Assembly: GCA_903813345.2 (NCBI GenBank)
Contig: CAIIXF020000001.1
Span: 21,018,001 to 21,082,000, forward strand
Reading direction: 5' to 3'
Source: Owenia fusiformis
Lineage: Eukaryota
DNA: 64,000 nucleotides
The notes beneath the pieces are model-generated. The model had not been told where the DNA came from, ran no database searches, and worked only from the letters and a program-made list of their open reading frames with translations. The translations under genes were made by a program, and so were the position numbers. Numbering within the stretch: the first letter of the stretch is position 1; the number at the start of each line of letters is the position of its first letter. This document shows positions 6,201 to 64,000 of this stretch, piece after piece.

Positions 6201-9200
6201 AATAAGTCAAATGTGATTGCAAACTTAAATATTATGCCATACAGGGATGCTGCCTATTAATGTGTACTAGGTTCTGTGACTAGCCAGTGATTTCAGAGGG
6301 GTAGTCACTAAAGAGAGGTGTTCAACAGAAAGAAATGTAGTCATGTTTGACTTATGGTATTTACTATTTTTTCCCTAAAGCATGCTTGTTTTGTTTTAAT
6401 TAGAGTTCGAGTTCTCCTTCTTTGCTTTGAGTGGGACTATGGCCCTTGCCTATTTTATACATAACTGTGTACTGTCAATCCTCCGCAATCAAAAAAATCC
6501 AGAAAATAGTGTAAGTAGATTAAATGGGGGTTAGCTTCAAATAGAATTACAAAAAGTTTCTTAGAACAGTCTAAATATTATTTTCAATATAAAGTTTCTA
6601 CCATTGACCTACTACATGTATTGTGCAATTCTCCGATTAAAATTATTATATACCAAGTCGGTATGTTTTAATTTGTGAAAATATTGTTTTCCCTGCATGT
6701 CAAAGTTTAAGATTAATGAAGAATTATATTTTGGTAAAATAAAAGTACATACGAGGGTTGATCATAAAGTTCTCATAATATCTCTCTAATTTCTTTATTT
6801 TTCAATATTTTCCTTTGAAATTTTCACAGAATATGCAGCATGGAATGTTTTATTAATCCAACAAACAATATTTACAATAACAGAAATATTAAATAAGAAA
6901 TAGTTGCCATAGTAACTTGAAATCAAGGCACCCGAGGCAAATAAAAAAACTAGCTAGAATAGCCCCCATTAACCATGTTTAAATACAATATAAGTTGTCA
7001 AATGAGCTATCAAACACATTAAATTGTCAAATAATATGGGCTCTCGACTGTTGTGAACTATTATAATGGTCAGGTGAATTGTATGATCTCATAATGGATG
7101 ATTGTTATGCTTCATTAGAAGTGACTGTTAGACCCCGTGACTGTTTTGTCAAATATCCCGAGGAAAATTGATTTTGCCCCTTTAGTTCATTTTTAACATG
7201 TACAGACCATACACAGGGTGTCATTTTGCTGATATCTTAGCAATATATTTGTTTTAGACCATGTTTAGTCTGACCAGAGGATCTTACAAACTTAACATAA
7301 CATTTTATCTGTATGAATTTTATTTTTCTGAAGATCTCTGCATCTATCGCATTCTCTTACTCAGTCATTTCTGATCATTAAATTTGAGTCTCAGACTCTG
7401 GTATCACATCTAACGGAGCATGAAAGCACCCCTTTTGACATCACACAATTTACACAATCGGTTTATTTAATTGTTAAAGCACTTTACAACATATTCAAGT
7501 TAACATTTTAACGTGTTTGGTAATTCATGAGAGTTTATTATGTATGTAAACATGGTTAATTAAGCTCATTCTCTCAATTATTTTTATTTGCCCTGAGTGC
7601 CTTGATTTCCAGTTACTATGGCAACAATTTCTTATTTAATATTTCTGTTAAACTAAATATTTTTTGCTGAATTAATAAGACATTCTATGCTGCACATTCT
7701 GTGAAAATTTCATTAGAATATATTGAAATAAAAAAATTAGAGAGATATTATGAGAACTTTATGATCAACCCTCGTATGTTCAAAACTACATAAAATTAGA
7801 CTTATGTTGTATTCCAGGGAAGAGACCTGACCATAGCATACATACTGGTAGCCCTCACATACCTTTACATTGGGGTATTCTTCTTCGCCACCTTTCCTTT
7901 ACACAAATACTGCATAGAAGATGTAAGTACAGCTACTGTCAATTGGAGAAAAATATCTACCCTACTTCAAATTTCAAATTATCGTTCAAATAGTGTTTTC
8001 AATACTAATTTAATTTTTTAAGCACTTTTGTAATACCATATAATAATCGAAAAACATAATTATGCTGTGATTATTTTATTCCAGAATTTTTTAAACAATT
8101 TCCTGAAATCAGATACTCTATCAGTCGTAGCCAGAGTTGGATTGTTCTTCCAAATGGTGACTGTATTCCCTCTGCTCATCTATATATTCCGTCTACAGTT
8201 CATGCACAGCATGTTTGGGGCCATATATCCCAGGTGAGTTGCTTTATACAAGGGTGGATCAAAAAGTTTCTCACCTTTATATATTTTGTCTGTCTAGGTA
8301 ATATCTCAAGTACCAGTTGACAGATTTGGGTAGTGTACATCTGCTCAAGAAAATTGATGGGCACTTTACTTTCAAAATGTAAACTATTTTGCATAAAACA
8401 ATGTAGCCTTTGATAACTGAAATACTAACTCTTTAATTGATTTGGTATATGCTGATGCTTTGATGACAAAATTGCCTCTAAACTCAAAATTGAATAGTTA
8501 TTTATGTAAATGTACTTTTTGATAACTTGAATACCACTTACCAGATTTGGTCCTTTTATAGGACAGTGTATTATAAGCATTGGGCATCTGCTCGGGAACA
8601 AATTTTCCATATGGCTGTACCAAATTACATTTTTTCTGAGACCCAGAAACTAAATATACAGTGTAGTAGCAATATAGATGAAGCTCTTTTAAAGTAGAGA
8701 TGTCAAATTTTTGAAAAAAGTGCATTATAGCTTAGCACTCTTGTATTCCTGGTATCTTTCTCCAGCTTCAGCCATGAATGATGTATGAACCTCATTGAAG
8801 TGTGGTTGGAGGTTTGCTTTCACCTTTTCCATCCATACTGCCAGTTTTGGACGTTGTTCAGTCAAATATCCCTTACCATATGCCTCTAGTTGGCTTAGCT
8901 CACAAACACAATGGAGGTCAGCAATTGTTAATTTTGAACCTGCCAGGAATGGGTTGGCTTTCAACCATATTGTCTCCAAATTGTCTAACATTGCCTCATA
9001 GTTACTCTTGGCTGTTGACTCATCAATGCTTCCTCCCCCAAACTGGAATCAACAATATTTATCTGTAGGCTTCAAAGAGAAATTGTTAGAATACTACAAT
9101 AAAGTACGTAATCATAAACAAATACAAAACATGATGCGTGAAAAGCCTTATGCCAGGGTTGTTTCCACTTACCTGTAGTTTTTATGTATAATGCTAATTC

Positions 9201-12200
9201 ATTTCCATGTATGTCAATAATCCTGTTATATATTGTTTTGTTGCTAAACTAGTTTCAAACTGTTTGCTGTATTTCTCACTCATCCTGTTCTTTTCTATTC
9301 AGAAAACATTTGACATTGTAATATTGTTTGCTTACCAACGCTTGGACATAGCCATGGGCATGTTTTCTCATGTCAGCTGGGTGCCAGGCCAGGTATGTGT
9401 TCACCAGGGCCCGATCCTTCAGATCCTTAGGGTACCAGTGATCAGCCACATCTTTTCTGTCCCCTAGGTACTGCAGAGCAGCCACACTGAAAGTTTGATG
9501 AAATCTGTCAAATCTGAATGTCATTGGATTATTGGCATGCTACCAGGTTTTCATGTCTGTCTATGGCAAAAGTGCTCACGTTGAGAGGTGTTCAGGTTAG
9601 GAAGGTGTTTGGATATACATGTTTTAATTTACTTTGTGAAAGGATCTATTGCAGGGAGCTTCAAAAATATGATGGCGGCAGTTTGGTTCTTTAGATGCAA
9701 ACTTTAGAGAATTTTCAAATGGAGCAGAAATAAAATGTGTAAGGTGTATGTGTAACTGTACAATTCATTTGGTTAATGTTATTTGATTGGACAAGTCAAA
9801 CAAAAAGGGGTTTTAAATTATAGTCAAATTGCCAAAAGACGTAAAATAATTCCCCAAAAATTGCAAGTAGCTGGAGGCCACTAAATACCTGTCATGGTCA
9901 TATCTATGATTACAATAATTGATCCAAATATTCGTAACTTTACAAACTATTTTTGTTAATGACAACCCCCTGTCTAACATTTTGATGGCTCTTTGTCTCT
10001 CATCAGGATTCAATTAATCTCTGGATAGTTAGGTTTCAGCAAGACTGTATTGTAAACTCTATCAGGCATCAGCTACACCAAACATTTCCCTTTGTATACA
10101 AGTGGACTTTCAATCCAAAATCAATGTTTTGTTCAGTGCTTTGAGTATTAATTATCCCATCGAACGAAGTTCGGAGGGATATAGGGAACGCCTCCGTCCG
10201 TCCGTCCGTACGTATGTCCGTCCGTCCGTCCGTCCGGGCAATAACTCAAATACCGTTGGCCCGATTTTGTTCATATTTTGTACACATATACCCTATGGGG
10301 GTAGAAGTTCTGCTCGAAAGCCGATTTTCAAAATGGCCGCTCATTTCAAAATGGCGGCCATTTTAGTGCCGATTTTAAAGTAATTTAGGTGCAATATGTA
10401 AAACTGTAATAGCAATATGTATTTTACTATATCTCGAAAAGTAGTGAAGGGATTTTGTTCATATTTGGTATGTGAATACTATAAGCATGGCACCCTGTCT
10501 AATGACACTTTTGGTAGAAGGTGGCCATTTTGAAAAATGGCCGCCATTTTAACGTATTTTACTATAACTCGAAAAGTAGTGGAGCCATTTTGTTTATATT
10601 TGGTATGTGAATACTAAAAGCATGGCACACTGTCTAATGACACTTTTGGTAGAAGGTGGCCATTTTGAAAAATGGCCCCATTTTAACGTATTTTACTATA
10701 ACTTGAAAAGTAGTTCAGCGATTTTGTTCATATTTGGTATGTTTCATTTTTTTATATGTGAATACTATAAGCATGGCACACTGTCTAATGACACTTTGGG
10801 TAGTAGGCGGCCATTTTGAAAAATAGCCACCATTTTCACGTTTTTTACTATAACTTGAAAAGTAGTGAAGCGATTTTGTTCATATTTGATATGTGAATAC
10901 TCATGAGCCTTGCACACTGTCTCATGACACTTCGGATAGTAGGCGGCCATTTTAAAAAATGGCTGTCATTTTTACACTTTTTACTATAACTCGAAAAGTA
11001 GTGGAGCGATTTTTTGTTCATATTTGATATGTGAATACTCTAAGCATGGCACATTGTCTAATAAAACTTTGGGGAGTAGTCGGCCATTTTGAAAAATGGC
11101 CACCATTTTTATGTGTGTTATTTTACAAGTACATGTGTGCGATTTTTCAAAAATTTTATAGGTGGCTACTTAAAAGCATATTATTTCTTCTGATGACAAC
11201 TTGGCTAGTGAGCAACCATTTTGAAAATGGTGGCCTTTCTGGTGTGTTGTTTTATGATATTTGCTATATATTTCGTTTGTAAAAATGCCAGCCATTTCTG
11301 TTCGATGGGATTCGCTACGCTTTGGCGTTGCCGTTGTTCTGGTTGAAACTTTACCTCTCTACTATGAACATGCCATCTATTTCCAATGTTGGGACACGCT
11401 TGAATGGATTCATCCTGGCATATTCCTCAGTGTGAATACTTGCATACACTGCACTCCCTGTAAAATACATATGTGAGGGCTCAGTTGAAAAAGACACAGT
11501 AAGAACATGCAATAGAAATATATAATAGAGACACAACACAAACATATGAGACACAATAGAAACAGACAATAAAGACACAGTAGAAAAGAAAAACGATAGA
11601 AAAGATAAATATTGGACTATTTTATAGTGTTAACTGATTTCAAACGCAAAATAGTGAAGCCAAAAATCCAAATGAGCTTTGCACCGATTTAAAAATCCTA
11701 CATTCTAACATTTGGGATGATTATTTTATTACCTTTATAAATCTGAAGGTCATTGAGTTGAAAGTCAATGTTGTTTACCTTCAGGAAGATCCCCAGGGAC
11801 CTACAAGGCTGGGATATGTAGTCCCCATGAAGGATAATTGACATTGTCAAATGTTTCTTGGCTTTTATATCCTTCTTCTTGTTTCACTTTATCTATGCCA
11901 GTTTTCTGTTTCTTGATCCCCTCCTGTATGTCAGTTAGGACATGGAGTGTTGATCCAGGGTATGTAGGTCTAAAGAATATTTAAGATATCCACATCTGCT
12001 CTCAAGTTTTACTATTGAGTACGCTGTATGTACATGTATGTACATTGTGCATTTTTGGACTTTTGCTCAAAAATGGTTAATTATTAAAAAAATTGAAGAT
12101 ATGTGTTATTTGAACACCTTAGAGATAACAATGTACATTAGAGTACATACATGTATTATAAAACCCATCTTAATTCATGAACTCTTCCACCATTCCAGAA

Positions 12201-14910
12201 CATATTCCATAAATAAACCCAATCTGTAGGAAACATCTACCTATAGATGTATTGAAATAGGTTGTGGCTTCAAAGTTGTTCACTATACAAAGCTTTTACT
12301 GCATTATACAATTCATACTTATACAAGGGGCGATCCATATATTCTGATAAAAATGCTCTCATTTTGTGACTTTTTCATATATCCCTTTTATTTTTTCAGA
12401 ACATGTAGATTATGTAATTACACATACGGTGCTAAAATATTTAAGCTATATCTTAAATTAATTTTGAAATAAGGTTGCCATGGTAGCCTGTATTTAGGGT
12501 AGGCGGGTCAGTTAAATTATAACGTCTAAAATAGATAAATATGTTAATTTACTCATTCCTCGGTACTTATTTTAAGCAGATCAAACGCATCTTCCAGTCA
12601 TTGCCAACTATTCATTGATCTGTTCCATACCCCTGTTGCCCTTGTTTGATAATTTGTACAGTGGGTAGCTATCTTTTCATAAGTAACATCTCAATTTATC
12701 GTAGTGTTATTCTCTGTCCGCAAGCTTTTCTTGCAACCAGATTGTGGATGATCTTCAACAGTGACCATGCCATCCTCTTTACGATACTACCTATAGATTC
12801 TTTATGCAGATATAACACCTTGCCCATGCTTTTAATGAGTCCATGTATGTCTCTGACAGTGTTCTCTTACTTATTCTTGATAGAAAAGAAAATCTAATGG
12901 TATTCCCTAATGTATCTGTTAATGTCACACTCTGCGTCAGCCACATTAACCTCATCTGACAATTTCATTTTTGGTGTGTTTCATAACATATAATGTCAAT
13001 TGGTCCATTCTGTCCTACAATGCTATTGTGATTTGTTGTGATGTTATAGTGAGCACATATAAACATTTGTTTAGCAACAAACAACGAGTAACAATACCAA
13101 ACTTTTTAAGAAGAAATGCATGATTTCCGCATGCTTTAAAATAATTAAAATAACAAGTTATTATGATATTTATATGTTATAATTTAATTGACCTGCCTAC
13201 CCTTAATACAGGTTACCATGACAACCTTATCTCATTGATAATTTAAGATATAGCTATAATATTTTAGCATTGTATGTGTAATTACATAATCTACATTTTC
13301 TGAAAAAATGAGAGGGATATGTGAAAAAATCACAAAATGAGAGCATTTTTATCAGAATATATGGATCACCCCTTGTATTTGCTTTCAGTATACGGCATGT
13401 GTTGGTGCTGAATGTGGTGCTTACCATAATTTGTGTGCTGTTTGCAATATTCCTGCCCAGTATTGGAACAATCATTAGGTAAATCCTTATCTCATTTGTT
13501 AGCCTCCGTGTGCCTGTATATTCTACCATAAAGGGACAATATTTCAACTCTGTATTTTGAAACATTTGTTACCTGCACCATTAATGAACTCCTTTTCTGT
13601 AAATATTAGTTTGAAAAAAAATGTTTGCCTTTTTGACATTTATTCTCTAGAAAGGAATTATTTATGTGACTTGCCTTATTTGTCTGATTGTCCACCATAT
13701 ATATTGTCTTCTCAAAAGTAATCATATTTTCACTTGCTCCCTCCATTGATAATAGTTGCTCCCTCCATTGATACTACTTTCTCCCTCCATTGATACTACT
13801 TGCTCCCTCCATTGATACTACTTGCTCCCTCCATTGATACTACTTGCTCCCTCCATTGATACTACTTGCTCCCTCCATTGATACTACTTGCTCCCCCCAT
13901 TTATACTACTTGCTCATTCCATTGATACTACTTGCTCCCCCCATTGATACTACTTGCTCCCCCCATTGATACTACTTTCTCCCTCCATTGATACTACTTG
14001 CTCCCTCCATTGATACTTCTTGCTCCCTCCATTGATACTACTTGCTCCCCCCATTGATACTACTTTCTCCCTCCATTGATACTACTTGCTCCCCCATTGA
14101 TACTACTTGCTCCCTCCATTGATACTACTTGCTCCCCCCATTGATACTACTTGCTCCCCCCATTGATACTACTTTCTCCCTCCATTGATACTACTTGCTC
14201 CCTCCATTGATACTTCTTGCTCCCTCCATTGATACTACTTGCTCCCCCCATTGATACTACTTTCTCCCTCCATTGATACTACTTTCTCCCCCCCCCCGTT
14301 GATACTACTTGCTCCCTCCATTGATACTACTTGCGTCCCCCATTGATACTACTTGCTCCCCCCATTGATACTACTTTCTCCCTCCATTGATACTACTTGC
14401 TCCCTCCATTGATACTTCGTTCTTGCTCCCTCCATTGATAATACTTTCTCCCTCCATTGATACTACTTGCTCCCCCCATTGATACTACTTGCTCCCTCCA
14501 TTGATACTACTTGCTCCCTCCATTGATACTACTTGCTCCCTCCATTGATACTACTTGCTCCCTCCATTGATACTACTTGCTCCCCCATTGATACTTCTTG
14601 CTCCCTCCATTGATACTCTATGAGATACTCCACATTGCTTTTCCCAGAATTAATATAAGTTGTAAAGCTTTTGTTTTAATTTCCAGAGTTTGATTCTGTT
14701 TATATATTTTATTTTATGTTTCTCTTTTATTTCAGATTTTCTGGAGCTTTCTGTGGGTTGGCCTACGCTTTTACTCTCCCATGCTTGGTTTACATTCTTC
14801 ATCTCAAGGACATGGGGAAGCTGACTTGGTTTATCTCCATAGTAACCAGCATCATCATCCTCCTTGGTATCGCAAATTTTATTGGACAGTTTTTAGTTAT
14901 AGAGAAATAG
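3240..14910 (+). CDS. SLC38A9: Lysosomal amino-acid transporter/mTORC1 sensor SLC38A9, 3' part (5' exons outside the window)
   Basis: GT-AG exons in consistent phase: 3240-3512, 4039-4143, [5153-5259 or 6404-6510], 7818-7922, 8085-8233, 13389-13478, 14736-14910 (TAG). Peptides match SLC38A9 as I recall it: [44 protein letters not shown]...[73 protein letters not shown]. Confidence 0.93.
5153..5259 (+). CDS. SLC38A9: SLC38A9 alternative TM6 exon A (107 nt)
   Basis: ttatttcag| acceptor and |gtatgt donor; open frame (E)[35 protein letters not shown]; phase 1 to phase 0. Confidence 0.8.
6404..6510 (+). CDS. SLC38A9: SLC38A9 alternative TM6 exon B (107 nt)
   Basis: ttttaattag| acceptor and |gtaagt donor; (E)[35 protein letters not shown]; phase 1 to phase 0; closer to the vertebrate LAFFIHNC motif as recalled. 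Confidence 0.88.
6752..7774. mobile_element. Non-autonomous Tc1/mariner-type element (~1.02 kb) with long TIRs
   Basis: TA|CGAGGGTTGATCATAAAGTTCTCATAATATCTCTCTAAT ... ATTAGAGAGATATTATGAGAACTTTATGATCAACCCTCG|TA; imperfect inverted similarity extends >200 bp; TA duplication at both ends. Confidence 0.9.
8725..11844 (-). CDS. Glutathione S-transferase theta class, nested antisense in an SLC38A9 intron (~227 aa)
   Basis: Exons 11844-11733 ([28 protein letters not shown]...), 11457-11355 ([20 protein letters not shown]), 9486-9336 (VAALQYL...[21 protein letters not shown]) and 9042-8725 ([18 protein letters not shown]...RPKLAVW). They sum to 684 nt in frame. The theta-class catalytic SQPCR motif is intact. 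The acceptor of the last exon is less certain. Confidence 0.9.
10152..11344 (+). mobile_element. Non-autonomous Helentron/DINE-1-like (HINE) element, copy 1
   Basis: 5' TTATCCCATCGAAC..GTTCG..GGGATA hairpin; (GTCC)n microsatellite; ~5 tandem ~134-bp core units; subterminal inverted repeat GTTCGATGGGAT; 3' stem-loop (ACGC-TTTG-GCGT) then ..TTCTGGTT. A near-identical second copy lies at 62819-63881. Confidence 0.85.
12324..13375 (-). mobile_element. Mariner deletion derivative (~1.05 kb) with long TIRs and decayed transposase remnant
   Basis: TA|CAAGGGGCGATCCATATATTCTGATAAAAATGCTCTCATTTTGTGA ... TCACAAAATGAGAGCATTTTTATCAGAATATATGGATCACCCCTTG|TA. A minus-strand remnant, [24 protein letters not shown], resembles the mariner ED..RSGRP linker. 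Confidence 0.9.
13733..14617. repeat. 22-bp minisatellite, ~40 copies (TGCTCCCTCCATTGATACTACT)
   Basis: Direct tandem array read in the sequence, in the last SLC38A9 intron. Confidence 0.97.
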
Positions 14911-16330
14911 TTCATGGATCATTTTTTAAGAAGTATAATTTTACTGGTTTGATCTTAAGTAATGTTTTGTTTTTAAGTAATTTAGTGTACATTGAAGGTG
15001 GAAAATGAATTTTCCATCAAATTGTTTTACAATGAATAAATAGCATTACATAGCAGTTCACTATGTATGTACAGTATACTAAGGAATTTTAATTTTATAG
15101 CATTTATAAATGATTTTTTAAAATGTGTTTCTGGTTTATTTTATTATGAGATATGAGCAATGTCCAGAGTTTATACTGCAATACTGTGTTAATTTGTCGC
15201 ATTTCAATATGTGATACAGGAATTTTTTGTTTAAACTCAGATGATATGGGACCAAAAATGTAGCTAAACTCATTAGGCTAGTAGTAGTATATTTTACAAT
15301 TGAAACAATCATATTTAGTGCAAATGGACTGGCAATATTTTCTTGATTATATATAGGTATATATTTATGGCTCAAATATCAATGTTATTCAATGTAAAAT
15401 GCATGCATGTACTATTATATACTTAATGCAGCTATTGTACAGGGCATTGTAATTATATAGTGCCTTCATTCTTGCTAAAAATCATTATTTTGATATTCAC
15501 AAAATGACATCCAATGCAAGAGCAATTTTTTGTACTGTAATTAATTGCTGGCATTCTGATTTCTGTAAAGTCATTGTAAATGAAACATTTTTTCTGGAAA
15601 TTGATATCAAATGGTAGTGCCTCATTAAACGGCAACCGTACAGTGGGTGTAGCTTCCCAAAATTGAGAGAAATATGCAGCATAAAATATAAGGATAAGCA
15701 GTACACATTATTTTCTATGTCCATTTTATGAAGCTACAGCCGCCATAAAGCAAAGTCAACTGAAGTTTAAAGCATCTCCATATGTCAAGTGTTCTTGTTC
15801 TACAAAAAGCTTTCTTAGATTGAATATGAAAGCAATGCAAATAACTGAAGAATGCTTATGTATATATATTTTATCTTGATTTTTATTCATCAATGTAAAA
15901 ACATTGCAGTTTAATATTTAATAAATATACAATATATTACAATAAACAAAATATTGAATTCAAAATATATGAATAATCTTATTCAGCTATTTACATGGAC
16001 GGTTCTCAAGGTTGGGATTAGTTTCAAACTGCCTCTAAAAAACAAACACACATAAGTTTCAATAAGTCGAGATTCAGTCAGACAAGGGTCTGTTGCACTG
16101 CACATATATTCTTGCAAACAAATAAGTGCAGTATGAAATCCTTTAAACATTACAATATCAAGAGTCTTCCTTAGTACTCTATTGTAAATGTCACTCCACT
16201 GCATTGGTGTGAATGAAGTCCTACATGTGCATTCTTTTGAGCAGTTATGGGAGAAATGATCATACGAATCCAGTCCTTATTGAGATCAAGGCTAGGTTCA
16301 TTTGATGGAATGCATTGAATTCAGTGCCCC

Positions 16331-19300
16331 CTATACTTCAGGTAGCGGTTCATCTTCCTCTTGTTTTAAGCCCAGGTCTCTTAGGAATGATGCCTCCTCA
16401 TCCAAGTAAGCATTGTATTCTTGCTTCATGCGGTACACTATTTCATCTTCTGTTAACTGGACATTAGGCGCAATCTGGAATGAACAATTTTAATTGTATT
16501 TATGAAATACAAAGACACATACGGGACATCCCAAGTACATGTACAGGACAAAACGAATGACAAATATGTAGGATAAAATCAAAATAAGTGGAGACCAAAA
16601 TACATTTTACAAGAACAAGACAAAACCAAAAGCAAATACAGAACAAAACCATATGTCAATTACATGATAAAACAAAGTAAAAGTATAGAACAATTACAAG
16701 ACAAAACCAAAGATAAGTACATGACAAAACTCAAGACACCGGGACAAAACCAAAGAAAGTACAAAACACAAATACTTGGGCAGATCAAGTGCAAGACAAA
16801 AGTGTACAAAGAAACCTGTTAAGTGGAACACCTCCATTGGTGGAACACCAGAGTCTCAAGACTACCTGACTTATGTAAGTGGAACACCTCCCAAGTGGAA
16901 CAGTTTTAGGGGTAGCACACATGTTCCATTTAGACAGGTTTTACTATACAGTACTTAGTCAAAACCAAAGACAAGTACTGGATATAAATGAAGAATAATT
17001 GAAATTCCTACCCCAGCTCTTCTTTTAGATTCTGCTTCAATTTCCATTTTCTCTCGTTCCCTAAAGTCCCACCTTGCAACAACGAACGCTCTCCTCTTTA
17101 CTTCACGATCAAAGTAGTTTGTAACACCTTGTAGCTCATTAGGGGTGGGAACACGAAGACTCCAAGGTATCTCCATGATGTGTAGGGTACCAGAGTTGTC
17201 ACCCACTGCCAGCAGGTGCTGCTTATCTATAACAGTCATTTTAGGAAAAAATCAAACTTGTTATTTATTATTTTGTTAACCTGATACTTTTCAGTCAATG
17301 TATTAGGTGTTGCTAAGGCAAATAAACCAGTTTTAATTCAATTTGTTTCAATATATCACTGAATTTAGCACGTCCAGTAATAAATGAATGGAGGATTAAA
17401 CTTACTAGTTATATGGTAGGGGTATATGCAGGTAATAGGATGAGCTGATACATTCTGATTTAGTGAAGGTTCGTGAGTACGATCCAGTATGTCCCACACA
17501 TCTATGCTGCCATCAACACGTGTGATATAGAACACTCCGGGTCTAGAAGGTGACCAGTAACCTCCTGTAAGACGCTTGGATGAAGGATTTGACTGAAGTA
17601 TAGGCCCAGACTGAAATGGAAATGAGGTATCTTATATTACAGGGTGTCACGTAATTAATAAGATATGCCTGTGTTGTCTCCCTACGCCATTACTTTTCTA
17701 AAATGTTTGAGAAATAGAGTGATGTTCAGAAACTTAATGCAAAACTGGTGTTTCATTTGCTCTGTGGTATGAATGGATAACAAACTTCCTAACAAATGCT
17801 TGCTTATTAATCCATGAAGACTTTTATATTACTACTCTTAAATTTGACGCTTTTGGATTTTAAATTCATATTTGTTTTAGTTGGACTTTGTGCTTTCTCA
17901 TCAGTTGAATTTGAAATACTTACAATGACGCCTTCCTTCCATAATGAGAAGGTCCAGCCTCCTATACATAACAAGACATCTTTGAAGAATGGAGACCTTT
18001 GAAGCGTAACTATAGGGCCATCATGAGCTTGGTGGTAAAACTCAGGCTTGGGGGCTGAAATTGAAAAATCATAAATGAGGTGTATTTGCTTAAAGAGGGT
18101 CAAATTGCATATAACAATATATTACGCCTATACATGTGCTTAGGTATAAAACCTACAAGGGTTTTGCTAATGAATAAAGAAAGAACACAAATATCCTCAA
18201 CAAGACCATTTATTATTGGAGTGTTACAGAAACAATTTAAAATGAAAATGATTTCACTTAGTATGTTTCTTTTTGGCCTCTGAGTAATAAAAGTCCAAAC
18301 TCTCTTCTTGAACTTGTAAGCTATAATAACTTACTGTTTATTTTTCCAGTGTCCTGGTCCTTCTGTGGCATCCAGTCTACATAGACAATCTCTCCATCTT
18401 CTGTCCCTACATAGAACTTGGTCTGCACACTCTTCAACAGTTTATTCTGCTTGGCAGAGCTTGGCTTACCGCCATACTGGAACCCCCCAACAGTGCTAGA
18501 TTCCTTCTTTTCCATCCCTGGGGCTTCATCCTCAACTAAAATTAAACACAATTTGAAAAAATGAATTCTACTGTTATTTGAAAATGGTTATTCAACTAAG
18601 CTAGTTCGTTTCTTGCTGATTTCCCGAGCATGGGATATAATTTCAACATAAGTATTAAGGTGCTACATATTTTATTTAGCATATTCCTGATTTAAACATA
18701 TAGGATCACCCGAAAAGCGAAAATGCCTCTGTAGAATGAAAAATTCATGAAGTTGGAATATTGGTGAATAATTGACAGGCCCTCAAAATAAACCAAGGTA
18801 CGAGTGAGTTAGATTCACAATGTCATAGTATAGGGCTTAGATAAAATGTTGATAGCCAGAATTCAAGTAATTTTTCAAACTAAGATGTGTGATGTGAGGA
18901 TATTCCGCATGATCACATCCTCATATTTTACCTGCACTTCTGTCCCCCTGTCTTTCTTGTATGGTAAATTTTGTAGGAGCGTGATCACCTCCAGGTTCAG
19001 CCTTAGATAGGAACACCTAGAAACAAAGCTTGGGAATAATCATTTAAGTATGGAAGATTCTGATATGTGTGTATCATTCATAATCGATTCTTTTTCTTCA
19101 ACCTATGAGATGCATAACAGCATATAAAATAAAGGTAAATGAACTAATCAATACAAATGTAAATAACATGTTTCCCAGTTCCTTATTTAACTGAATTTAA
19201 CTGAATTTAATGATTTAATTAAGAACCTCTTTCATGACACACATTCGTATATTTGAATTGAAATGGCAACATATTTGATGATACTTCTGGATCACCCTGT

Positions 19301-22300
19301 ATAGAACACTTTTAAACTGACTAAATAATGTACCCTTAGATGTGGTTTCCAGACCAGGTCTAGGTGTTTGAATGTGTTTGGCACCCCCATAGGACCCTTC
19401 TCATCTTGCACCTGGTGCCCCTTTGGAGGCCTCGTGTCCCACACCAACACTGAACTGCAAATCAATAAGTCATGAATATATCAGAAGACAAGAATAATAA
19501 ATTAATCGAATGGTGAATGGGATTTAAACTAACCAAATGTGGATCCAGTATTTTCAGTTAGAAATAGCACACAACCTGAATGAGAGTTTAAAGCTCAACC
19601 AACTAGGGATGGTGTAGGAGAAAAAAAATTGGAATTCGTAAAATTTCAAAATTGATAATTTTTGGGTTTGCATAGGTCCATGCACCACCTATACAATATG
19701 CTCCATCATCAGGCTTTAGTGTTGTTTACTTCAAGAAACTCTGATAACATCTGAGTAATTGAGATGATATGGGGTATATAGGTTATCTGTGCCTTGTATG
19801 TTTACAACAGAATTTACTTACTAATCCGTAGCACAAGTCATGATCTGTACACTTTGTTGAAGTTTGTTTTCCATTGCATAACCCATTCTGTTCAACTGTA
19901 AGACAAAGGTAAATTATTAATTTCTAAGTAATGTAAGAAAAGTGGACTAAGTGGGTCTTTCTTCAGTTTTACTAGCTGCAACAATTGAACGAGAGAAGAC
20001 CTATAGCTATTGATGTACATTTACAAGAAGTACAGGGTGTTCAGTAAGTAAAGCTAATTTTGCTCTCAAACTTTTATTTTTTGTCATTTATCTTTCAAAT
20101 TTTCAGTGAAGAAGCATTTGACATTTGTCTAACTACCCTGAAAAATTAAATAAGATATGATGAATAATAGGCAAACAATGGTTGTCATAGTAACGTGAAT
20201 ACGGGTTCTGCGGAGCAATTTCTTACTTTAATAAAAATGTTATAATGCAATGAAATTGATTAAGATTAATGCTGCATATGTCTTTGTTTGCTATGGCTGA
20301 AAGTCACGATAAACATAACAACAACATACACAAATATGATACCATGGCAACAGTAGTCTATGACATCACAGACAGATGATACAACAGATGGAATGATCCA
20401 GAATGATCCATCAGACACTGCTCCATGACATCATCAAAATCATGGCTGCCAGGATTGCCAATGGAAGCAAAATGAACAATGAAATGAAACAACAATTGAG
20501 AAGTAGCATCAGATACAATGTGTTGCTAGGGAAATCCAAGCAGGATACCATTAGGGATATCCAAAAAGCATATGGGACAGTGTGCCTAAGTACACAATCT
20601 ACAATGATTTTGGAGTATTTTCATGTTTGAAAAATGATCTGCGTGGTAAGATCCACACAAATATCCATGAGCTTCAGAATGCCGTTCAACGTTCGCTGAC
20701 AAAGAACTTTCCAGATGGCTTCCGCAGGATATATCAGAAGTGGATAGAACGACATCAGCTGTGTGTGAAAGCTAAGGGGAACTACTTTGAACATGAAATA
20801 GAATGCTAACTTGAAAGTAGAAATGTGGAGTAGCCACAGAACTATGGTTGAAATATAGACAAGACAGAAACTAACATTAACAAAATCTACTATGCTGTGA
20901 ACTTATAAAATTGCTCCGCAGAACCCGTATTCGCGTTACTATGACAACCACCATTTTGCTGTTATTCATTATATCTTGATCATTTTTTCAGGATAGTTAG
21001 AAAAGTGTCTGATGCTTCTCCACTGAAAATTCGAACGATGATAGACAAGAAATAAAAGTTTGAGAGCAAAATTAGCTTTACTTACTGAACGCCCTGTACA
21101 TTGGAACTAAATAATGTGTTTTGAAGATGTTACCTCCATATGATCTGGCATCCATAGAATATCTGTAATTGCTGCTTTATGACTATTCTCTATACTAGAT
21201 ACAGCACAGTATCTTACGATGGGGATATCCATGGCACTTTCATCTTCAAAACCAGGCTGAAAATAAAGCGTAACACATGATAGTTCTAAATATCACAATA
21301 TCAGCTTTTCACTTGAATAAAATTTTAGACAATCTGATTCTGTGTAAATCTCTTAGATTGCTGAAAATGAAGTTTAGGTTGTGCATCATGCTCATGGATT
21401 TGTTAGCTTTCAGAGAAATTGAGAGTTATGCAATGCACCAAGACTTTAGCACATTTTTACTGACAGCATTTATCATTTTGTCATTTTGGATTTTTTGGCA
21501 AAGTTTATAACTTGCAATCTGATTTTTTAAGGGAAATGCTACCACAACTTATCTTTGTATTTCTCTAGTAAGTCAAAACATGGGATTTCTCTTGAAAGTA
21601 TCATAAAGTAAACTTACAATAGTATTATTGTTTTTCTTCCTTGCATTAGCCCTTGGTGCTTTAAGTCTGTCTATATGTTGTGATATATCCCACAATACCA
21701 GCTGACCATTCATACACCCTCCTGCTATTATATTAGGATCTGTATTACAGAACTTGAATGAGTAGATATCATCAGGAGCCTCCAGTAGTAACTGAAAGAA
21801 GAGAACCAATTGTTGATTAGTCCAAATCACAAGTAGATGGGTCTTCTTTATATACAGGTACATTTGAATAATATATTTAAACCATTAAATATTTTTGTGC
21901 AAGATACAGAAATGTTTATTAAATGTGTATTAAAAGTTAAGACTTTTTAAAAATATGGGCCCATTTTCCAAAAAGGGTCCATTCAAAAGGCCTTTTTGAA
22001 AATGAGGCCCCCAAAATGTCCACCAGTGTTTATGGAGTTATCTATATCATAATAATAGTGGACTCATTTTTGGTTTTCAGTTACATTTGTAGAAAATCTT
22101 AAATATAGAAGGACAAACTATGCCTATTTCTTTTGTTAGACATGTCCTTTATTCAAATACCTGTGGATGAATGGGATCAGCAAAGCTCCATATGAGTATT
22201 AGAGAGGGGGTCATTATGATTTTTTCTGCATTGTCTATCCTATCATCAAATGATATCTTCTCTGATGCAGATACAGCTACAATACCTGAAATTATAGATA

Positions 22301-25300
22301 AAGCTACAATGTACCCCCTATACATAACGACATTTGAAAATGATGATTTGACAATATTTCACAATATAATAACAGTTTAATTATGATAATAGTTTTTTAA
22401 AGAAGCATCTGTTGAACCAAAAGTGCTTCCAGTTTTCACTTTACAGAGGGCCTTGGTCAATCTGCACATGTAGTGCTTTTGTGAGTCTTTCATCAAGTAT
22501 ACCTTTTATAGTTGGATGCCAATCTATGCATGTGATAGTTTTATCTTTGCTGAACTGTAGATCTGTAAATGACTGGTATTCCTTGAGGTGATTATCTGCC
22601 TTGCTGCCAAAACCACTATCGTCATCTCCAAGTTGATTCCAGTCATCAGCAAATACATCCATGATCTCATTCTGTTGCAGAGCCAGCTGAAACCTGTAAT
22701 TTATTAAATATGACAATTGGTTTGTTATACAACTTGTGCTCTAGATCTATATTGCACACCCTACCAGGTATGTAATGACAAGTGACATGGTCCCTGAGAT
22801 TCCCATTCAATATCACACTCTGTGTGTATGTACAAAGCCCATATGAACATGCGAGAAACACATGCACTAAGGGGAAAATGCTCTTCAAATTTTGATTTAT
22901 AAAATAATGTCTATTTCAGTGTTTATACCTTGGAGCCACAGATTTTAGGAATTCTCCAACTTTGGGGTTTTCATTTTCAACCTTCAGTTCTTCCTCATTG
23001 AACTCTCTTGGGTAATATTGAACCTCAGCATTCCTGGGGTGTCTCCAAGTTGTCTGACATCCCTGGTCTATAAATTGAGGGACTGCCTAAAATGGAGACA
23101 CATTATGAGATTAAAATATAAATTGGAAGTCTACCCCTGAATTTGAAATCCATCACTTATTGAAAGTCACAAAATTTGAACATAACTTAAATGTCTGAAA
23201 TATACAGTTAAACCACTTTACAGTGAACACCTATGGAGCCACAAAAATGTGTCCACGGAAGGTAGGTGTTCTCTACAGAAAGACAATTTTATACAGAAAT
23301 CAGTGGAGTATGTGCTGAGAAGGGGTGTTCCCTATCGATGTTCACGAGAGAGAGTTGTTCATTAAAACAGGATTAAATGTACCTCTATGGCATGCTTTGA
23401 TTTGGCTGTTAACAACAGATCTTACTTGTATAGACTTTGTAAGCTCTACTTTCTTCACATCAGGTGTTTTGTCTTCATATGGGGTACATTCAATGTAACC
23501 ATCTTTAGCATCTGCAACATTGCGGTCTGTAAATTTAACTGGAGCACCAAACTCTCTTCGAAGTCTCTTAACACTGATGCTGATCTGGAAAATGTGGACA
23601 AGAGTTTTGAAAGGGTTTTGATTTACATTATTTATGTGTTTTTTATAAATTACAATCCTGAATATTAGAATGCTAAACACTGCAAGGATGGTGAAATTCA
23701 TGATATATCACAGCAACTTCTACTTCTAGCAATAGAAATCTTGTGATAGTTCAACTGGACGATTCACAGAGAGTTATAAATTAAGAGACAAACGCCCGCC
23801 CACCCAACCGCCCGGCAAACTGATTACAATATAGCACCTTAAGACTTACTGAAACACATAGCCACCCAACTTATTTAGAATTCTAAATCTCAACTTTAAC
23901 TTTTTAAAAGTCTAATATAATCTTACTGGCTTTCTTGTTTCTACAACTGCTTCCTCTGCAATTTCCTTCTCACTGCCATATGATATCCAAGGCTTAGATT
24001 CTGGGGGGATGTACTTATATTCAATCTGTTCTTCTTCGACTGCCTCTCCACCTTCACCTCCCTCTGCACCCTCCTCTTCTGGCTACAGGGAGAAAATACA
24101 GAATTTACTTGTAGTAAATGTAAGAGTAAAACACAGAGTGATAAAAATATAACGATAGAAAACACAAGGTTATTAGATTGTATCACCACAATAATTCTAC
24201 AAAAACTAAAATTATTGAAAAATACAACAGGGTGAATAAAATGCAGGAGTTATTACTGTCCACTTACCCCCTTCAGCAGCTTGTCTTTAGCTTCCTCTGT
24301 GAGTGCAATAAGGTAGTTTTGTCCATGCTTGAAATCTGCATCATATACCACAAGTATATCTTCACCTGGATAATCCTGAAATTCAAAATGATTAATCCAA
24401 TCATTCAATCATCTCTAGTATCATAGATCGCCATGGAATTTGGGATAGGGCACTTACGATTTGGAATTGGTGGAATCCATGGATGAATCAAATTCGTTTG
24501 AACAAACACGTGATTTAAACATCACATCTCAAAAGGGATTCTCAACGAACTGCATAACAATGGTGATCGCAAAAGGTCCTTGCAAAGTCCTAATTATTCA
24601 CCTATTTCTAACAGTTCCTATGAATTATTTTTTTGTACGAATGAATTCTTATAACATTAGGAATAAACATCTTATAAAATAGGGTGAATTTAATCGGTAG
24701 GAAACATGAAGAAAATTATGTTCAAAGGATTGATATTTGAGTACTAAGGAACTGAATTGTATTTTTAACAAGTATAAAACACTGACCACTATTGTTTGCT
24801 TTATGACAGAAAAATCTGACACTCCAGCCCGCATTTTCAAATCTTCCAAGATTTCAGCTTTTGGAATTAGCTTGAATGGTTGCTCTTCTGTGACATGTTC
24901 ATCAGCAACACAGGAGAATATTTCCTGGGTCTTAGATGTCATGAAAAATGGTGCAACATTGTCAGGTAGTGCATTCTCATCTTTTTCTTCCTCAGGGGGT
25001 GGCTCTGGCTTCTTCTCTTCCTCCTTTTTGCCACCTTTCTTACCTAAAACAATATTTGTTATGTTATTTATGGCATCATCATATCTTTGATCTTAATTTT
25101 CTAATTAACTGAGGTCAAGAAAAAAACATTATCATGTATTCAGTGTTTTTTGCTCAATATCAATCAAAGTGGCAAAGAAGAATACCAAGTGTAAATTGTT
25201 CTTTTCAATACCCTTGGCAATGTGTTACAATCGTAAAAATAAAAAAAATTACAGCTGATCATATATGGAAGATATTGAAGATTTAAGATGCCAAAAATGT

Positions 25301-49279: not shown

Positions 49280-49369
49280 TAAAATGAAAATCATGTTACA
49301 GTTACATGTAATTTATACTTTCAGTTACTATGCGATGAATGAGCAGAAGCGTGTGCAGATTCATTCACT

Positions 49370-52300: not shown

Positions 52301-55300
52301 TTAAATGTAACAATTTCTAAGCAAGCGGATAGGAAATGAGGTATAAGTGGCTAGACAGACAGTGGTTTAGTTGTGGTATGTCTCATATCATTTTAATTCA
52401 ACTCAATTCAAGAAATTACAAAGTGGCAACTTATATATGGTTTACCCCAGTTTTAACCAAAATGTTTTAAAAAAGTTTTAACATTAAGGTTTGTTGTTAT
52501 TTGGTTTTTAAAAACATGTGCAGTAATGCAAATTATGATTGTAAAGATTTCAATATTTCAAACATATAACTTAGTACTATCTGTATGTTTGCCCCTGTTT
52601 TTTATCTATGACTATTTTAATTTTTCATGACGAATTTTCCAACAGGTTTCCGTAGATATGTATCTGGGGCATTGTAAAATCAATTTCATGAGCCCTGTAT
52701 TTCATAAAACAAACATGTTGACATTCTACCTTTAAATCTCTGACATAGATATTAAGATGTAGAAAATACTCTTGCTACTCTTGAGGTATATGTCCCATTC
52801 AAATTCCATGATGATGTGATAAATTTTATAAGTGTGCCTCTGCTTCAAAAGCGACTAAACTAACATGAGACACGTCGTATTTTTTCAGTGCCAGCAATGT
52901 ACGACTCGTCAACCTGGAGCATATAAAGCAGTATCTACAGACTGAGGGCACTTGTAAATGTGGACTAGAGTGCCCTCTTTTAGTTGAAAAAGTATTTAAT
53001 TTTGACCCTGGTGTAATATCTCGCCAGTGGACACCTGAAGATGTTAATAACATGGATGATGTCATTGATGGATTAACTAAGTTGTGCAATCACCGGAGGA
53101 AGATCATTGCCATGGCAACGTTCCAGAACAATGCAGTACCTCAAACTCTCAATGACTCACCCCCAAAAGCCAAGAGGAAAAAAGGTAGGTTTATACATGG
53201 GAAAAAAGGAGTCAGATAAAAGTTGTATTTATCCTGGTATAAAATAAGAATCCCCATTTTGCTCACGCATTCCAGTTTCCTGAAGTTCAATTCTCCATCA
53301 TGGCAGGATAACAACTTTTTTTTCAGTATTTGTGCCTTGGACCCAATGGTTACTTATTCTCAAAGTGAAATGATCTATTTTAATATTTAAATAATCATGG
53401 ACTCTTCTTCAGACAAAAATCACATAAGTTTTGCATATTGATTTATTGAAATTGTTTAAAGCATAACTACAGCTCTTACATAACCTGTACCAGTTTTTAT
53501 AAATGTCAGACATTGGATAAAAACATATTCTATTGCCTAAAAGAGAGGGATGATGTCTTTGTCATTCTTAATATAATTTTATATCAACAAAGTTGAATTT
53601 AGTCACTGTTCTTTTGGAAGAAATCATTTAGTTTTTTTTGAAGGGGTGTATTAAAAATTTAGTTTATGTGAAACCCAAAAAATATAGCATTACATGATTG
53701 AGAGATATAGGATTTGATTAAAAAAGCACTTCTATACGAGTTGTGGCCTAATTTCCCTAAATAATTATTGAATAAAACTCAAAGTTCAAGTTGACCCCTA
53801 TCATATAGGATGGAGTAATTGTATTCATACAATAAGTTATTTCTATTTCATTTGTCAATGATATAATTTTTAATAATTTATTGGTCCGGGTGTTGAATAC
53901 TTTATAAAAACATTCACACTAACTTTGAATACTATAATTTGGCACCAATTACAGGGTGGTCCAAAAAAATCATTTACACTTTTGATTGCGTAGCATTTTC
54001 TGACAATGGGAAGATTTCCCAATTGTTTTTCATTGACCTGTCGTTAAGATATGTAAGTTTTGTGTGATACAAGTTTTATTATCATATACCATTATGTTAG
54101 CACAGATCAATAGTTTGTAATGTGCTAATCCAAGCTCCCTGCGAACATTGTAATGTCCTGTCCATGTTGTTTTTAATATCCTCTAGCTCATCTATAGTTT
54201 GGTGATCGTTTGCATAGAACTTGACTTTAAAGTACCCCCACCAAAAACTTTATAGGGAATGTGTCTTGAGAATATGCATGGCCGGGTGTGTTCCATATAA
54301 TGGGAGATGAGTCTGTCTTCAGGGAAGTAATGACGGAGGTATTCAAGTCAAGCATTGGAGCAGTGCAATGTTGCCTTATCTTGCCAATAGATTATTACAG
54401 TTACAGTATCCATGTCAACCCCTCGCTTCCGCCCCAGTGCCAGTTCTTCTCATGACTTCAATATATCAGTCCATGTTCACAGGAAATGAATCTCCATTAG
54501 CATTCTCAAATTAAACCATATCACCCCAGTATCACCATTCTGACCTAACTTTCACCAGTCAACCTCTCTACATCACATGTTTGATGCTGATGCTCAGAAG
54601 GCTAAACCTGTGCCAAAAAGTGCATTTTCTATTTGTTGACGGTCATTACAAACTTAGCGCCAAAGATCTTGGATGGAGCACATTACAAACTATTGCCCCA
54701 TGCTCTCATTACGTTGGTATATAAAAATAAAACGTACACCACACAAAACTTACATGTCTGAAAGACAGGCCTATGAAAAAAATTGGGAAATTTTCCTGCT
54801 TCGTTGTCAAAAGTGTAAATGATTTTTTGGACCACCCTGTATATTTTAACAAATTTGGAAATTGTTCTTTTACTGTCATGTATTTAGAGTCCATCTTCCC
54901 CAAATCAATTTTAGAAAATCATGTCTGTAGTGAATTGGTCAAGAAAAACATAACAAAGTCAAGTATTCATTGCTTTATGGTTGAGAGAACAAGAAAAATC
55001 ATATTGTACATATAGTGGCTAATATTGAAATTGAAATAAAAGATTGAACTACTTTGTTCAAACCTCAACTTCACCTAAAATTACAGTATTTTATAATAGA
55101 ACATCTATGTATATTTATAATTTCCAGGGAAGAAAAAAGCCAGGAAATCAACTCCAGATAATATGTTGGTTTCTCAGATTCTGGCACAGAGGAGCCATTT
55201 TGAAGACAAAATAGGACCAACATCTCCAAAACATAGAAAATTATCGCAAGAGGATTTACCAAGTTCTGAGACTATAGAAAATCAACAATCCAGTCCAGGT

Positions 55301-63881: not shown

Positions 63882-64000
63882 TACACAAGACATCATCTCT
63901 TATGTAATAGATGATATGTGCAGGGTGATTCAGAAGTAACGTCAAAGGTGTTGCCATTTCACATGAGGTTACCATAGTTACCATAAATTCAACCAATCAA

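What the first reader, a model, noticed from the sequence alone, without database searches (positions are those of the whole stretch)
6752..21096. Three dissimilar ~1.05-kb TA-flanked elements each carry an RFX X-box 148-151 bp inside both termini
Seen: elements 6752-7774, 12324-13375 and 20033-21096 have different TIR sequences but similar lengths (1023, 1052 and 1064 bp). Each carries the same 14-bp palindrome type at a fixed distance from both ends. Element 1 has GTTGCCATAGTAAC at 6903 (offset 151) and GTTACTATGGCAAC at 7612-7625 (149). Element 2 has GTTGCCATGGTAGC at 12474 (150) and GTTACCATGACAAC at 13212-13225 (150). Element 3 has GTTGTCATAGTAAC at 20181 (148) and GTTACTATGACAAC at 20935-20948 (148). 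Established: this matches the RFX X-box consensus; RFX drives ciliary and spermatogenic genes; a nucleosome wraps ~147 bp. Inference: these transposons may recruit host RFX one nucleosome length from each end, for germline timing or end accessibility, and so disperse X-boxes. One copy lies inside the ciliary gene DNAI3. The two ends of one element are not independent, so this is three observations.
Basis: partly seen in the sequence, partly recalled or inferred. Interest (0 to 1): 0.8.

Follow-up and report, generated by a model that had tools for sequence, protein, structure and literature searches.

The report
RFX X-box inside mariner transposon ends
Three decayed copies of related mariner-type jumping genes each carry, inside both long end repeats, a conserved 14-base site that looks like the docking site of the host's cilia regulator RFX; it most likely helped switch on the transposon's own gene, but binding has not been tested.

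Summary
Three TA-flanked elements (1,023, 1,052 and 1,064 bp) each carry a 14-bp imperfect palindrome 148-151 bp inside both ends.

They are not three independent cases. Their 189-373-bp TIRs align colinearly, with 42-50% identity against about 30% off register. E3 keeps N- and C-terminal remnants of a mariner-type transposase. They are non-autonomous copies of three diverged families of one long-TIR mariner lineage, probably in the annelid Owenia fusiformis. The fixed offset is therefore inherited, and the nucleosome-length idea has no support.

The palindrome itself still looks functional:
- It is the best-conserved 14-mer of the TIR (11 of 14 columns invariant), better conserved than the termini.
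- All six copies fit the restricted Drosophila X-box consensus.
- Three are letter-identical to validated C. elegans X-boxes.
- E3 has a second X-box-like site outside the TIR, 121 bp upstream of the inferred transposase ATG.
- No inner repeat of the terminal site was found, so there is no IR-DR structure.

Best reading: a host-RFX-type cis-regulatory site in the element's 5' region, mirrored at the 3' end by the long TIR. Binding is untested. This is a new variant of known kinds and moderately interesting.

The parts
6752..7774 (.). E1: 1,023-bp non-autonomous element with TA on both sides (6750-6751, 7775-7776). TIR arms are 6752-7124 and 7404-7774. No coding remnant was detected.
6903..6916 (.). 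E1 left X-box GTTGCCATAGTAAC, 151 bp from the end
   Evidence: It is identical to the C. elegans bbs-7 X-box in the table of PMC3245922.
7612..7625 (.). E1 right X-box (GTTACTATGGCAAC on the + strand), 149 bp from the end
   Evidence: It is identical to the osm-5 X-box in PMC3245922.
12324..13375 (.). E2: 1,052-bp non-autonomous element with TA on both sides. TIR arms are 12324-12557 and 13140-13375. A possible transposase remnant on the minus strand (12694-12786) is not significant.
   Evidence: HMM E=7.6
12474..12487 (.). E2 left X-box GTTGCCATGGTAGC, 150 bp from the end
   Evidence: Its reverse complement GCTACCATGGCAAC equals the osm-1 X-box in PMC3245922.
13212..13225 (.). E2 right X-box (GTTACCATGACAAC on the + strand), 150 bp from the end
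20033..21096 (+). E3: 1,064-bp internally deleted mariner-like element with TA on both sides. TIR arms are 20033-20221 and 20908-21096. It sits in an intron of DNAI3, which is on the minus strand.
20181..20194 (.). E3 left X-box GTTGTCATAGTAAC, 148 bp from the end and 278 bp upstream of the inferred transposase ATG
20338..20351 (.). E3 second X-box-like site GATACCATGGCAAC. It lies outside the TIR, 121 bp upstream of the inferred ATG, on the 5' side only.
   Evidence: Sites with at most 2 mismatches to GTTGCCATGGCAAC number 6 in the window against 0.19 expected.
20472..20627 (+). E3 transposase N-terminal remnant (HTH). The ATG is inferred at 20472.
   Evidence: Pfam HTH_48 E=4.8e-4, below the curated cut-off. 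HMM of full-length relatives, positions 3-42, E=5e-4.
20603..20809 (+). E3 transposase C-terminal remnant, ending in the stop codon
   Evidence: 98 relatives found by phmmer. HMM positions 288-351, E=8e-23. tblastn with 11 full-length relatives.
20935..20948 (.). E3 right X-box (GTTACTATGACAAC on the + strand), 148 bp from the end
53952..54839 (.). E4, a negative control: an 888-bp TA-flanked element with about 205-bp TIRs and CAGGGTGGTCC termini, and no X-box anywhere
   Evidence: No Pfam hit for its ORF pieces.

Best explanation
E1, E2 and E3 are decayed, non-autonomous copies of three diverged families belonging to one lineage of long-TIR mariner-like transposons. E3 is a clear internal-deletion derivative.

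The 14-bp palindrome is a functionally constrained subterminal site inherited from the lineage's ancestor. It is a canonical X-box and is most likely bound by a dimer of the host's RFX factor, not by the transposase. Its most likely job is cis-regulation of the transposase gene, as a promoter or enhancer element. In the only copy that still shows where the gene starts, it lies in the 5' untranslated region about 280 bp upstream of the ATG. The 3' copy exists because the whole subterminal region is part of the long TIR. The constant 148-151-bp offset reflects colinear descent, not a nucleosome ruler. Non-autonomous copies scatter X-boxes as a by-product.

Shown: the anatomy, the homology, the mariner identity of E3, the conservation island and the fit to the X-box. 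Inferred: RFX binding and the transcriptional role.
For: (1) Homology. Between-family ungapped identity is 0.42-0.50 in register against about 0.30 off register, and the MAFFT alignments are colinear.

(2) Mariner identity.
- The E3 C-terminal ORF has 98 relatives.
- I passed 10 of the 98 to Pfam. 9 carry Transposase_1 at E<=0.001, 8 of them above the curated cut-off. 7 carry HTH_48, 5 of them above the cut-off.
- An HMM of 11 full-length relatives hits the E3 C-terminal piece (E=8e-23, positions 288-351) and the N-terminal piece (E=5e-4, positions 3-42).
- TA flanks are present.

(3) Constraint.
- The X-box window is the top-ranked 14-column window: 11 of 14 columns invariant, and between-family agreement 0.88 against a mean of 0.545.
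- The terminus scores 0.70.
- Column shuffles reach 11 of 14 in 368 of 20,000 trials.
- A site that stays more constant than the family-specific termini fits a non-coevolving host protein better than the elements' own transposases. This step is inference.

(4) X-box fit.
- 6 of 6 sites fit GYTRYY N1-3 RRHRAC.
- 3 of 6 equal validated C. elegans X-boxes.
- The three variable positions are transitions, and every variant site still fits that consensus on at least one strand.

(5) Promoter reading.
- E3 has a second X-box-like site outside the TIR, only on the 5' side, 121 bp upstream of the inferred ATG.
- Validated C. elegans X-boxes in the table lie mostly 60-285 bp upstream of the ATG.

(6) Precedents.
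- RFX1 and RFX3 bind the AAV ITR D sequence and DNA-virus enhancers (abstract of PMC5760533).
- Long Mutator TIRs harbour promoters (abstract of PMC3310237).
Against: - Only three copies from one 64-kb window were available, and no copies from elsewhere could be fetched.
- The conservation island is only modestly significant (p about 0.02).
- Within each copy the two arms keep the motif at 40 of 42 positions, against 85-90% for the TIR overall. That is no clear excess.
- E2 shows two hits in key positions, one in each arm.
- The second, proximal site is present in E3 only.
- The ATG position is inferred from a weak N-terminal match in a decayed copy.
- A promoter element mirrored at the 3' end would also drive antisense transcription.
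- RFX activity is not germline-specific.
- No binding data of any kind exist.
Confidence: 0.45

Rival explanations
1. The palindrome is an internal binding site for the element's own transposase or another element-encoded function. It would be an accessory subterminal site that helps synapsis, as in IR-DR Tc1-like elements and Tc3. The likeness to an X-box would then be coincidental.
For: - The site lies inside the TIR, at the distance where inner transposase sites sit in IR-DR elements (recalled, not from a call).
- It is present at both ends.
- A palindrome suits a dimeric protein.
- The conserved GC-richer stretch just inside it could be part of such a site.
Against: - No inner copy of the terminal 40 nt exists in any of the six arms in direct orientation (p 0.39-1.0 against shuffles). 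In inverted orientation four arms are also non-significant and the two E2 arms reach only p=0.023.
- The site is more conserved between families than the termini that the diverged transposases must recognise.
- The chance that a given 14-mer fits the restricted X-box consensus is about 4e-5. This follows from 2.52 expected strand matches per 128,000 positions.
- Purified mariner transposase is reported to be sufficient for transposition in vitro. I saw this only as a title in the reference list of PMC3245922.
Confidence: 0.2
2. Host RFX is recruited one nucleosome length from each end to keep the ends accessible or to position a nucleosome. It would then control transposition itself, not transcription.
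For: - The offset of 148-151 bp is close to 147 bp.
- The site is present at both ends.
- The X-box fit is good.
- RFX binds the terminal repeat of AAV (abstract of PMC5760533).
Against: - The offset is a single inherited character of colinear homologous TIRs. There is no replication of the distance.
- The other long-TIR TA-flanked element in the window lacks the site.
- E3's extra site on the 5' side only fits a transcriptional role, which is asymmetric, better than a symmetric end-access role.
- Nothing in the sequence bears on nucleosomes.
Confidence: 0.1
3. The site has no function. The 14-mer would be a chance island of slower decay among three related TIRs, and its likeness to an X-box would be accidental.
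For: - There are only three families.
- The island reaches p about 0.02 in column shuffles.
- The arms do not keep the motif clearly better than the rest of the TIR.
- X-box consensus hits also occur by chance in coding sequence of the window at 53106 and 55454.
Against: - Two things coincide: this is the top-ranked conservation window, and its borders match a 14-bp motif whose per-site chance is about 4e-5.
- There is near-perfect dyad symmetry.
- A second X-box-like site lies upstream of the ATG in E3.
Confidence: 0.15

Closest known systems
Long-TIR mariner-related clades ('LTIR-like' DD40/41D elements and their MITEs in aphids; PMC5490172, passages read)
   Same: They have the TA target duplication, mariner-type transposase relatives, unusually long TIRs, and deletion derivatives or MITEs of a few hundred to about 900 bp.
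   Different: - The TIRs here are 189-373 bp, not about 460 bp.
- The catalytic spacing cannot be read because the catalytic core is deleted in E3.
- That paper states its TIRs show no palindromic motifs, whereas here a conserved 14-bp palindrome is the most conserved TIR feature.
- The host is an annelid, not an insect.
RFX X-box promoter elements of ciliary genes (C. elegans bbs-7, osm-5, osm-1; Drosophila consensus GYTRYY N1-3 RRHRAC; PMC3245922 and PMC2375033, passages read)
   Same: It is a 14-bp imperfect palindrome with a 2-bp AT spacer. 3 of 6 sites are letter-identical to validated X-boxes. In E3 the distance to the ATG (278 and 121 bp) is within the range listed for validated sites.
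   Different: It sits in transposon terminal repeats, not in a host gene promoter. It is duplicated in inverted orientation about 700 bp away. Dependence on RFX has not been tested.
[quoted passage not shown]
   Same: A host RFX site sits in the terminal repeat of a mobile or parasitic DNA, and it affects expression.
   Different: That case is a mammalian virus, not a cut-and-paste transposon. Binding there was shown by experiment, whereas here there is only sequence.
IR-DR Tc1-like elements (Sleeping Beauty, Tc3, Bari3) with inner transposase sites about 160-200 bp from the ends (recalled; the Bari papers were seen only in the listing)
   Same: They have long TIRs of about 200 bp or more with a functional site near the inner border.
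   Different: The inner site of IR-DR elements repeats the outer site. No such repeat exists here.
Mutator-like elements whose long TIRs carry promoters and transposase sites (PMC3310237, abstract seen in the listing)
   Same: Long TIRs double as regulatory regions.
   Different: They belong to a different superfamily with 9-bp target duplications, occur in plants, and have no RFX.

Membership tests
mariner-like element (Tc1/mariner superfamily) | TA target-site duplication | tested here: met
   TA lies on both sides of E1, E2 and E3.
mariner-like element (Tc1/mariner superfamily) | Terminal inverted repeats | tested here: met
   The arms are 373, 234-238 and 189 bp long at 79-87% identity. 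This is much longer than the roughly 30 bp typical of classical mariners (typical length recalled).
mariner-like element (Tc1/mariner superfamily) | Transposase with a Mos1-type N-terminal HTH and a mariner C-terminus | tested here: met
   This applies to E3 only.
- HTH_48 gives E=4.8e-4, below the curated cut-off.
- The C-terminal ORF matches the extreme C-termini of 337-412-aa proteins. Of the 10 scanned, 9 carry Transposase_1.
- The HMM gives E=8e-23 and E=5e-4.
- E1 and E2 are assigned only through TIR homology to E3.
mariner-like element (Tc1/mariner superfamily) | DD34D (or DD37-41D) catalytic triad | not testable with these tools
   HMM positions of about 43-287, which contain the catalytic core, are deleted in E3 and absent in E1 and E2.
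RFX X-box | Imperfect palindrome fitting the X-box consensus | tested here: met
   - 6 of 6 sites fit GYTRYY N1-3 RRHRAC on at least one strand (consensus from PMC2375033).
- 5 of 6 fit GTHNYYATRRNAAC on both strands. That consensus is recalled and comes from no call.
- 2 of 6 fit the strict GTNRCCNNRGYAAC.
RFX X-box | Sequence equal or close to experimentally validated sites | tested here: met
   E1-left equals bbs-7, E1-right equals osm-5, and the reverse complement of E2-left equals osm-1, all in the table of PMC3245922. The other three sites differ by 1-2 bases from listed sites.
RFX X-box | Position within a few hundred bp upstream of the regulated gene's ATG | tested here: inconclusive
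   In E3 the distances to an ATG inferred from a weak match are 278 bp and 121 bp. E1 and E2 have no readable gene.
RFX X-box | Bound by RFX, with expression dependent on RFX | not testable with these tools
   This needs EMSA, DAP-seq, ChIP or reporter assays.
IR-DR type Tc1-like element | Inner direct repeat of the terminal transposase-binding site within each TIR | tested here: not met
   I aligned the terminal 40 nt locally against positions 45-260 of each of the six arms. The direct orientation gave p 0.39-1.0 against 300 shuffles.
MITE | Short, non-coding, TIR-bounded, high copy number | tested here: inconclusive
   E1 has no coding remnant, but at 1,023 bp it is long for a MITE. Copy number is unknown. 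One further E3-family copy is implied by protein P0001, which is 95% identical.

The most novel reading that the evidence does not exclude
A lineage of long-TIR mariner transposons in an annelid has built the binding site of the cilia and sperm-flagellum master regulator RFX into both terminal repeats. It would use the site to express its transposase in RFX-active cells, including flagellated male germ cells. Through its many non-autonomous copies it would seed ready-made X-boxes across the genome, for example in an intron of the ciliary dynein gene DNAI3. That would provide raw material for rewiring the ciliary gene network.
Probability: 0.2. Interest if true: 0.75.

Novelty: new variant of a known kind. 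Interest (0 to 1): 0.5.

Why it matters
It is well known that transposons carry host transcription-factor sites and spread them. My literature searches found no report of an X-box built into mariner or MITE terminal repeats. The only links they turned up between RFX and mobile DNA were motif enrichments in mammalian TE-derived elements, a study of RFX4 motifs in piRNA clusters, and the AAV ITR case.

If the site is a real RFX site, three things follow:
- It would show how a DNA transposon borrows a deeply conserved ciliogenic and spermiogenic regulator.
- It would give a concrete, testable source of new X-boxes near ciliary genes.
- It would add a host-factor site to the anatomy of long-TIR mariners.

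If it is not, the result is an ordinary trio of related mariner deletion derivatives.

Tried and rejected
- IR-DR test. I aligned the terminal 40 nt against the inner TIR in all six arms. No significant direct repeat was found, so that structure is rejected.
- Protein search with the E3 N-terminal remnant, set to longer proteins: no hit.
- Scan of genome contigs with a TIR pattern that omits the X-box. The pattern matched all six window ends with 0 expected. The scan gave one match, in a Bacteroidia MAG contig (L001), with no TA-bounded repeat and no X-box, so it is a chance match. No related DNA from elsewhere was obtained.
- Internal parts of E1, E2 and E3 are not alignable: z ranges from -0.7 to 0.4, and E2 against the reverse complement of E3 gives z=2.8. 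The similar lengths of about 1.05 kb therefore remain unexplained.
- The E2 coding remnant is not significant (E=7.6), so E2's orientation is uncertain.
- Pieces of E4 gave no Pfam hit. Its superfamily rests on the TA flanks and the terminal sequence alone.
- I found no X-box in the 25.1-27.5 kb region upstream of the first DNAI3 exon seen. The host's own X-box usage could therefore not be illustrated from this window.
- Rfam found only one tRNA and nothing in the elements.
- Not checked: viral contigs and metagenome contigs (closed), and supplementary files (closed, and I did not ask for them). The supplementary motif tables and repeat library of PMC9977687 may bear on whether an RFX archetype and these families are already listed.


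Full report
**The observation**

Each is bounded by TA on both sides: E1 6752-7774, E2 12324-13375, E3 20033-21096.

Each has long terminal inverted repeats. blastn of each element against the window gives arms of 373 bp (78.6% identity) for E1, 234-238 bp (86.6%) for E2 and 189 bp (86.8%) for E3 (also seen).

The six 14-mers are at the stated coordinates, with offsets of 151/149, 150/150 and 148/148 bp.

The motif count is far above chance:
- The degenerate pattern covering them has 8 strand matches against 0.06 expected.
- The restricted X-box consensus GYTRYYNNRRHRAC has 15 strand matches against 2.52 expected.
- Eleven of those 15 lie on the six sites. The four elsewhere (sites at 987, 45997 and 55454) are about the chance number.

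**The elements are related**

blastn finds no cross-family similarity at E<=1e-3, but the six ends align colinearly with almost no gaps.
- Ungapped identity between families is 0.42-0.50 at the correct register (offsets 0 to -2).
- At other offsets it is 0.30-0.32, with sd 0.027-0.039.

Four islands are conserved across the families:
- the terminus TAC.AGGG..G.TC;
- TAA.....CTCT.A at about 26-40;
- TTTTCA at about 71-76;
- the 14-mer at about 150.

The shared motif and its shared offset are therefore inherited characters of one lineage. They are not three independent findings.

**What they are**

E3 carries two transposase remnants on the + strand.
- The C-terminal ORF (20555-20806) finds 98 proteins at E<=0.001 among 1.84 billion representatives. 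Proteins of 337-412 aa match at their extreme C-terminus.
- I scanned 10 of the 98 with Pfam. 9 carry Transposase_1 (8 above the curated cut-off) and 7 carry HTH_48 (5 above the cut-off). The tenth, the 99-aa P0001, has no family.
- An HMM built from the 11 hits of 320-420 aa was run over all 2,046 six-frame pieces of the window. It hits the E3 C-terminal piece (E=8e-23, positions 288-351) and the E3 N-terminal piece (E=5e-4, positions 3-42).
- The N-terminal piece also hits Pfam HTH_48 at E=4.8e-4, below the cut-off.

E3 is therefore a mariner-like element that lacks about positions 43-287 of its transposase, including the catalytic core.

E2 has only a non-significant remnant (E=7.6), and E1 has none. 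Both are assigned through TIR homology. The inner parts of the three elements are not alignable, so the similar lengths are unexplained.

The closest protein, P0001, is 95% identical and is named by NCBI as an Owenia fusiformis product on a 62-Mb contig. The window is therefore probably from that annelid or a close relative.

Long-TIR mariner-related clades are already described in aphids (PMC5490172, passages read).

**Context**

E3 lies in an intron of DNAI3.
- Exons on the minus strand between 16955 and 25092 match PDB chains named DNAI3, WDR63 and IC140.
- E1 lies downstream and E2 upstream of a GST gene on the minus strand. GST_C is at 8728-9048.
- One insertion in a gene that fills at least 8 kb of a 64-kb window carries no statistical weight.

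**The motif is an X-box by sequence**

- All six sites fit the restricted Drosophila consensus GYTRYY N1-3 RRHRAC on at least one strand (consensus read in PMC2375033; matches).
- E1-left equals the validated C. elegans bbs-7 X-box, E1-right equals osm-5, and the reverse complement of E2-left equals osm-1, all in the table of PMC3245922.
- The other three sites differ by 1-2 bases from listed sites.
- The three variable positions among the six sites are transitions, and every variant site still fits the restricted consensus on at least one strand.

**The motif is constrained**

- In the alignment of the six ends, the 14 columns of the motif are the best-conserved 14-column window: 11 invariant columns and between-family agreement of 0.88.
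- The mean over the first 200 columns is 0.545, and the terminus scores 0.70.
- Shuffling columns reaches 11 of 14 in 368 of 20,000 trials.

Two caveats apply. The evidence comes from only three families. Within each copy the two arms keep the motif at 14/14, 12/14 and 14/14 positions, against 85-90% for the TIR overall, which is no clear excess.

**How it most likely works**

- No arm contains an inner direct repeat of its terminal 40 nt (direct orientation p 0.39-1.0). An IR-DR arrangement is therefore not supported.
- A site that stays more constant than the family-specific termini is better explained by a host protein that does not co-evolve with each family. This is inference.
- In E3 the inferred ATG is at 20472, which puts the TIR X-box 278 bp upstream.
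- A second X-box-like site, GATACCATGGCAAC (20338-20351), lies outside the TIR, only on the 5' side, 121 bp upstream of the ATG.
- Sites with at most 2 mismatches to the perfect palindrome number 6 in the window against 0.19 expected.
- Validated C. elegans X-boxes in the table sit mostly 60-285 bp upstream of their ATG.

My best reading is a host-RFX-type promoter or enhancer element of the transposase gene, mirrored at the 3' end by the long TIR. I put this at 0.45.

The nucleosome argument rests on a single inherited distance. A fourth TA-flanked long-TIR element (53952-54839) has no X-box.

**Comparison with what is known, and novelty**

Precedents:
- RFX1 and RFX3 on the AAV ITR and on DNA-virus enhancers (abstract of PMC5760533);
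- promoters in long Mutator TIRs (abstract in the listing);
- generic RFX motif enrichment in mammalian TE-derived elements (listing).

Searches that combined RFX, X-box or DAF-19 with mariner, MITE, transposon or inverted repeat found no report of an X-box in mariner or MITE termini. The Owenia genome paper mentions neither RFX nor mariner in its main text. Its supplements were not seen.

I rate this a new variant of known kinds.

**Limits**

- No related DNA from other loci or species could be examined. 
- RFX binding, expression and transposition effects are untested.

Noticed in passing
window 53952-54839: A fourth TA-flanked element (888 bp) with TIRs of about 205 bp at 75% identity and CAGGGTGGTCC termini. 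It has decayed ORF pieces on the minus strand, no Pfam hit and no X-box. It lies in a gap between ORFs of a large Q-rich gene (49343-61444, + strand).
   Followed up: partly
window about 6815-6828, 12387-12400, 20094-20107 and the mirror positions in the right arms: All six TIRs keep an invariant TTTTCA, mostly TTTTCAG, preceded by a T-rich tract about 65-77 bp inside the end. Read inward from either end it looks like a splice-acceptor site. After the X-box it ties with the terminus (0.70) and the TAA...CTCT block (0.71) as the next-best-conserved TIR islands. Its function is unknown.
   Followed up: no
window 20338-20351: A second X-box-like site, GATACCATGGCAAC, lies in E3 outside the TIR. 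It overlaps an ACCATGG and is 121 bp upstream of the inferred transposase start.
   Followed up: partly
window 13652-14500 approx.: A minisatellite with a 22-bp period and about 38 or more copies begins about 280 bp beyond the right end of E2.
   Followed up: no
window 10148-11349 and 62815-63886: Two copies of a repeat of about 1.1-1.2 kb, 90-98% identical in places. It contains a CCGT-rich microsatellite, read as an RPSV-repeat ORF, followed by 135-bp tandem units that hold the palindrome GGCGGCCATTTTGAAAAATGGCCGCC. The family was not identified, and the ORF has no Pfam hit.
   Followed up: no
window 34385-35240: A dense cluster of direct and inverted repeats built on TGGGACTCGATGGGGCAAAATCCCA-like units of about 10-20 bp. 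Long ORFs are open on both strands.
   Followed up: no
window 45733-48263: Two large intron-less ORFs on the + strand, 279 aa (lysine- and arginine-rich) and 440 aa, with no Pfam match. They may belong to another mobile element.
   Followed up: partly
window 27916-27987 (+): One tRNA gene (Rfam RF00005, 67.6 bits).
   Followed up: no
window 41463-41749: A short foldback or MITE-like unit of about 290 bp with 93-nt arms at 74% identity. Beside it, a 25-aa piece (41383-41457, +) weakly resembles mariner transposase positions 266-284 (E=0.062).
   Followed up: no
window 16955-25092 (-), 8728-11629 (-), 324-1763 (-): Host genes in the window. The first is DNAI3/WDR63, supported by PDB matches. The second is a GST, with the GST_C domain at 8728-9048. 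The third is a membrane protein with C-type lectin and F5/8 type C domains.
   Followed up: partly
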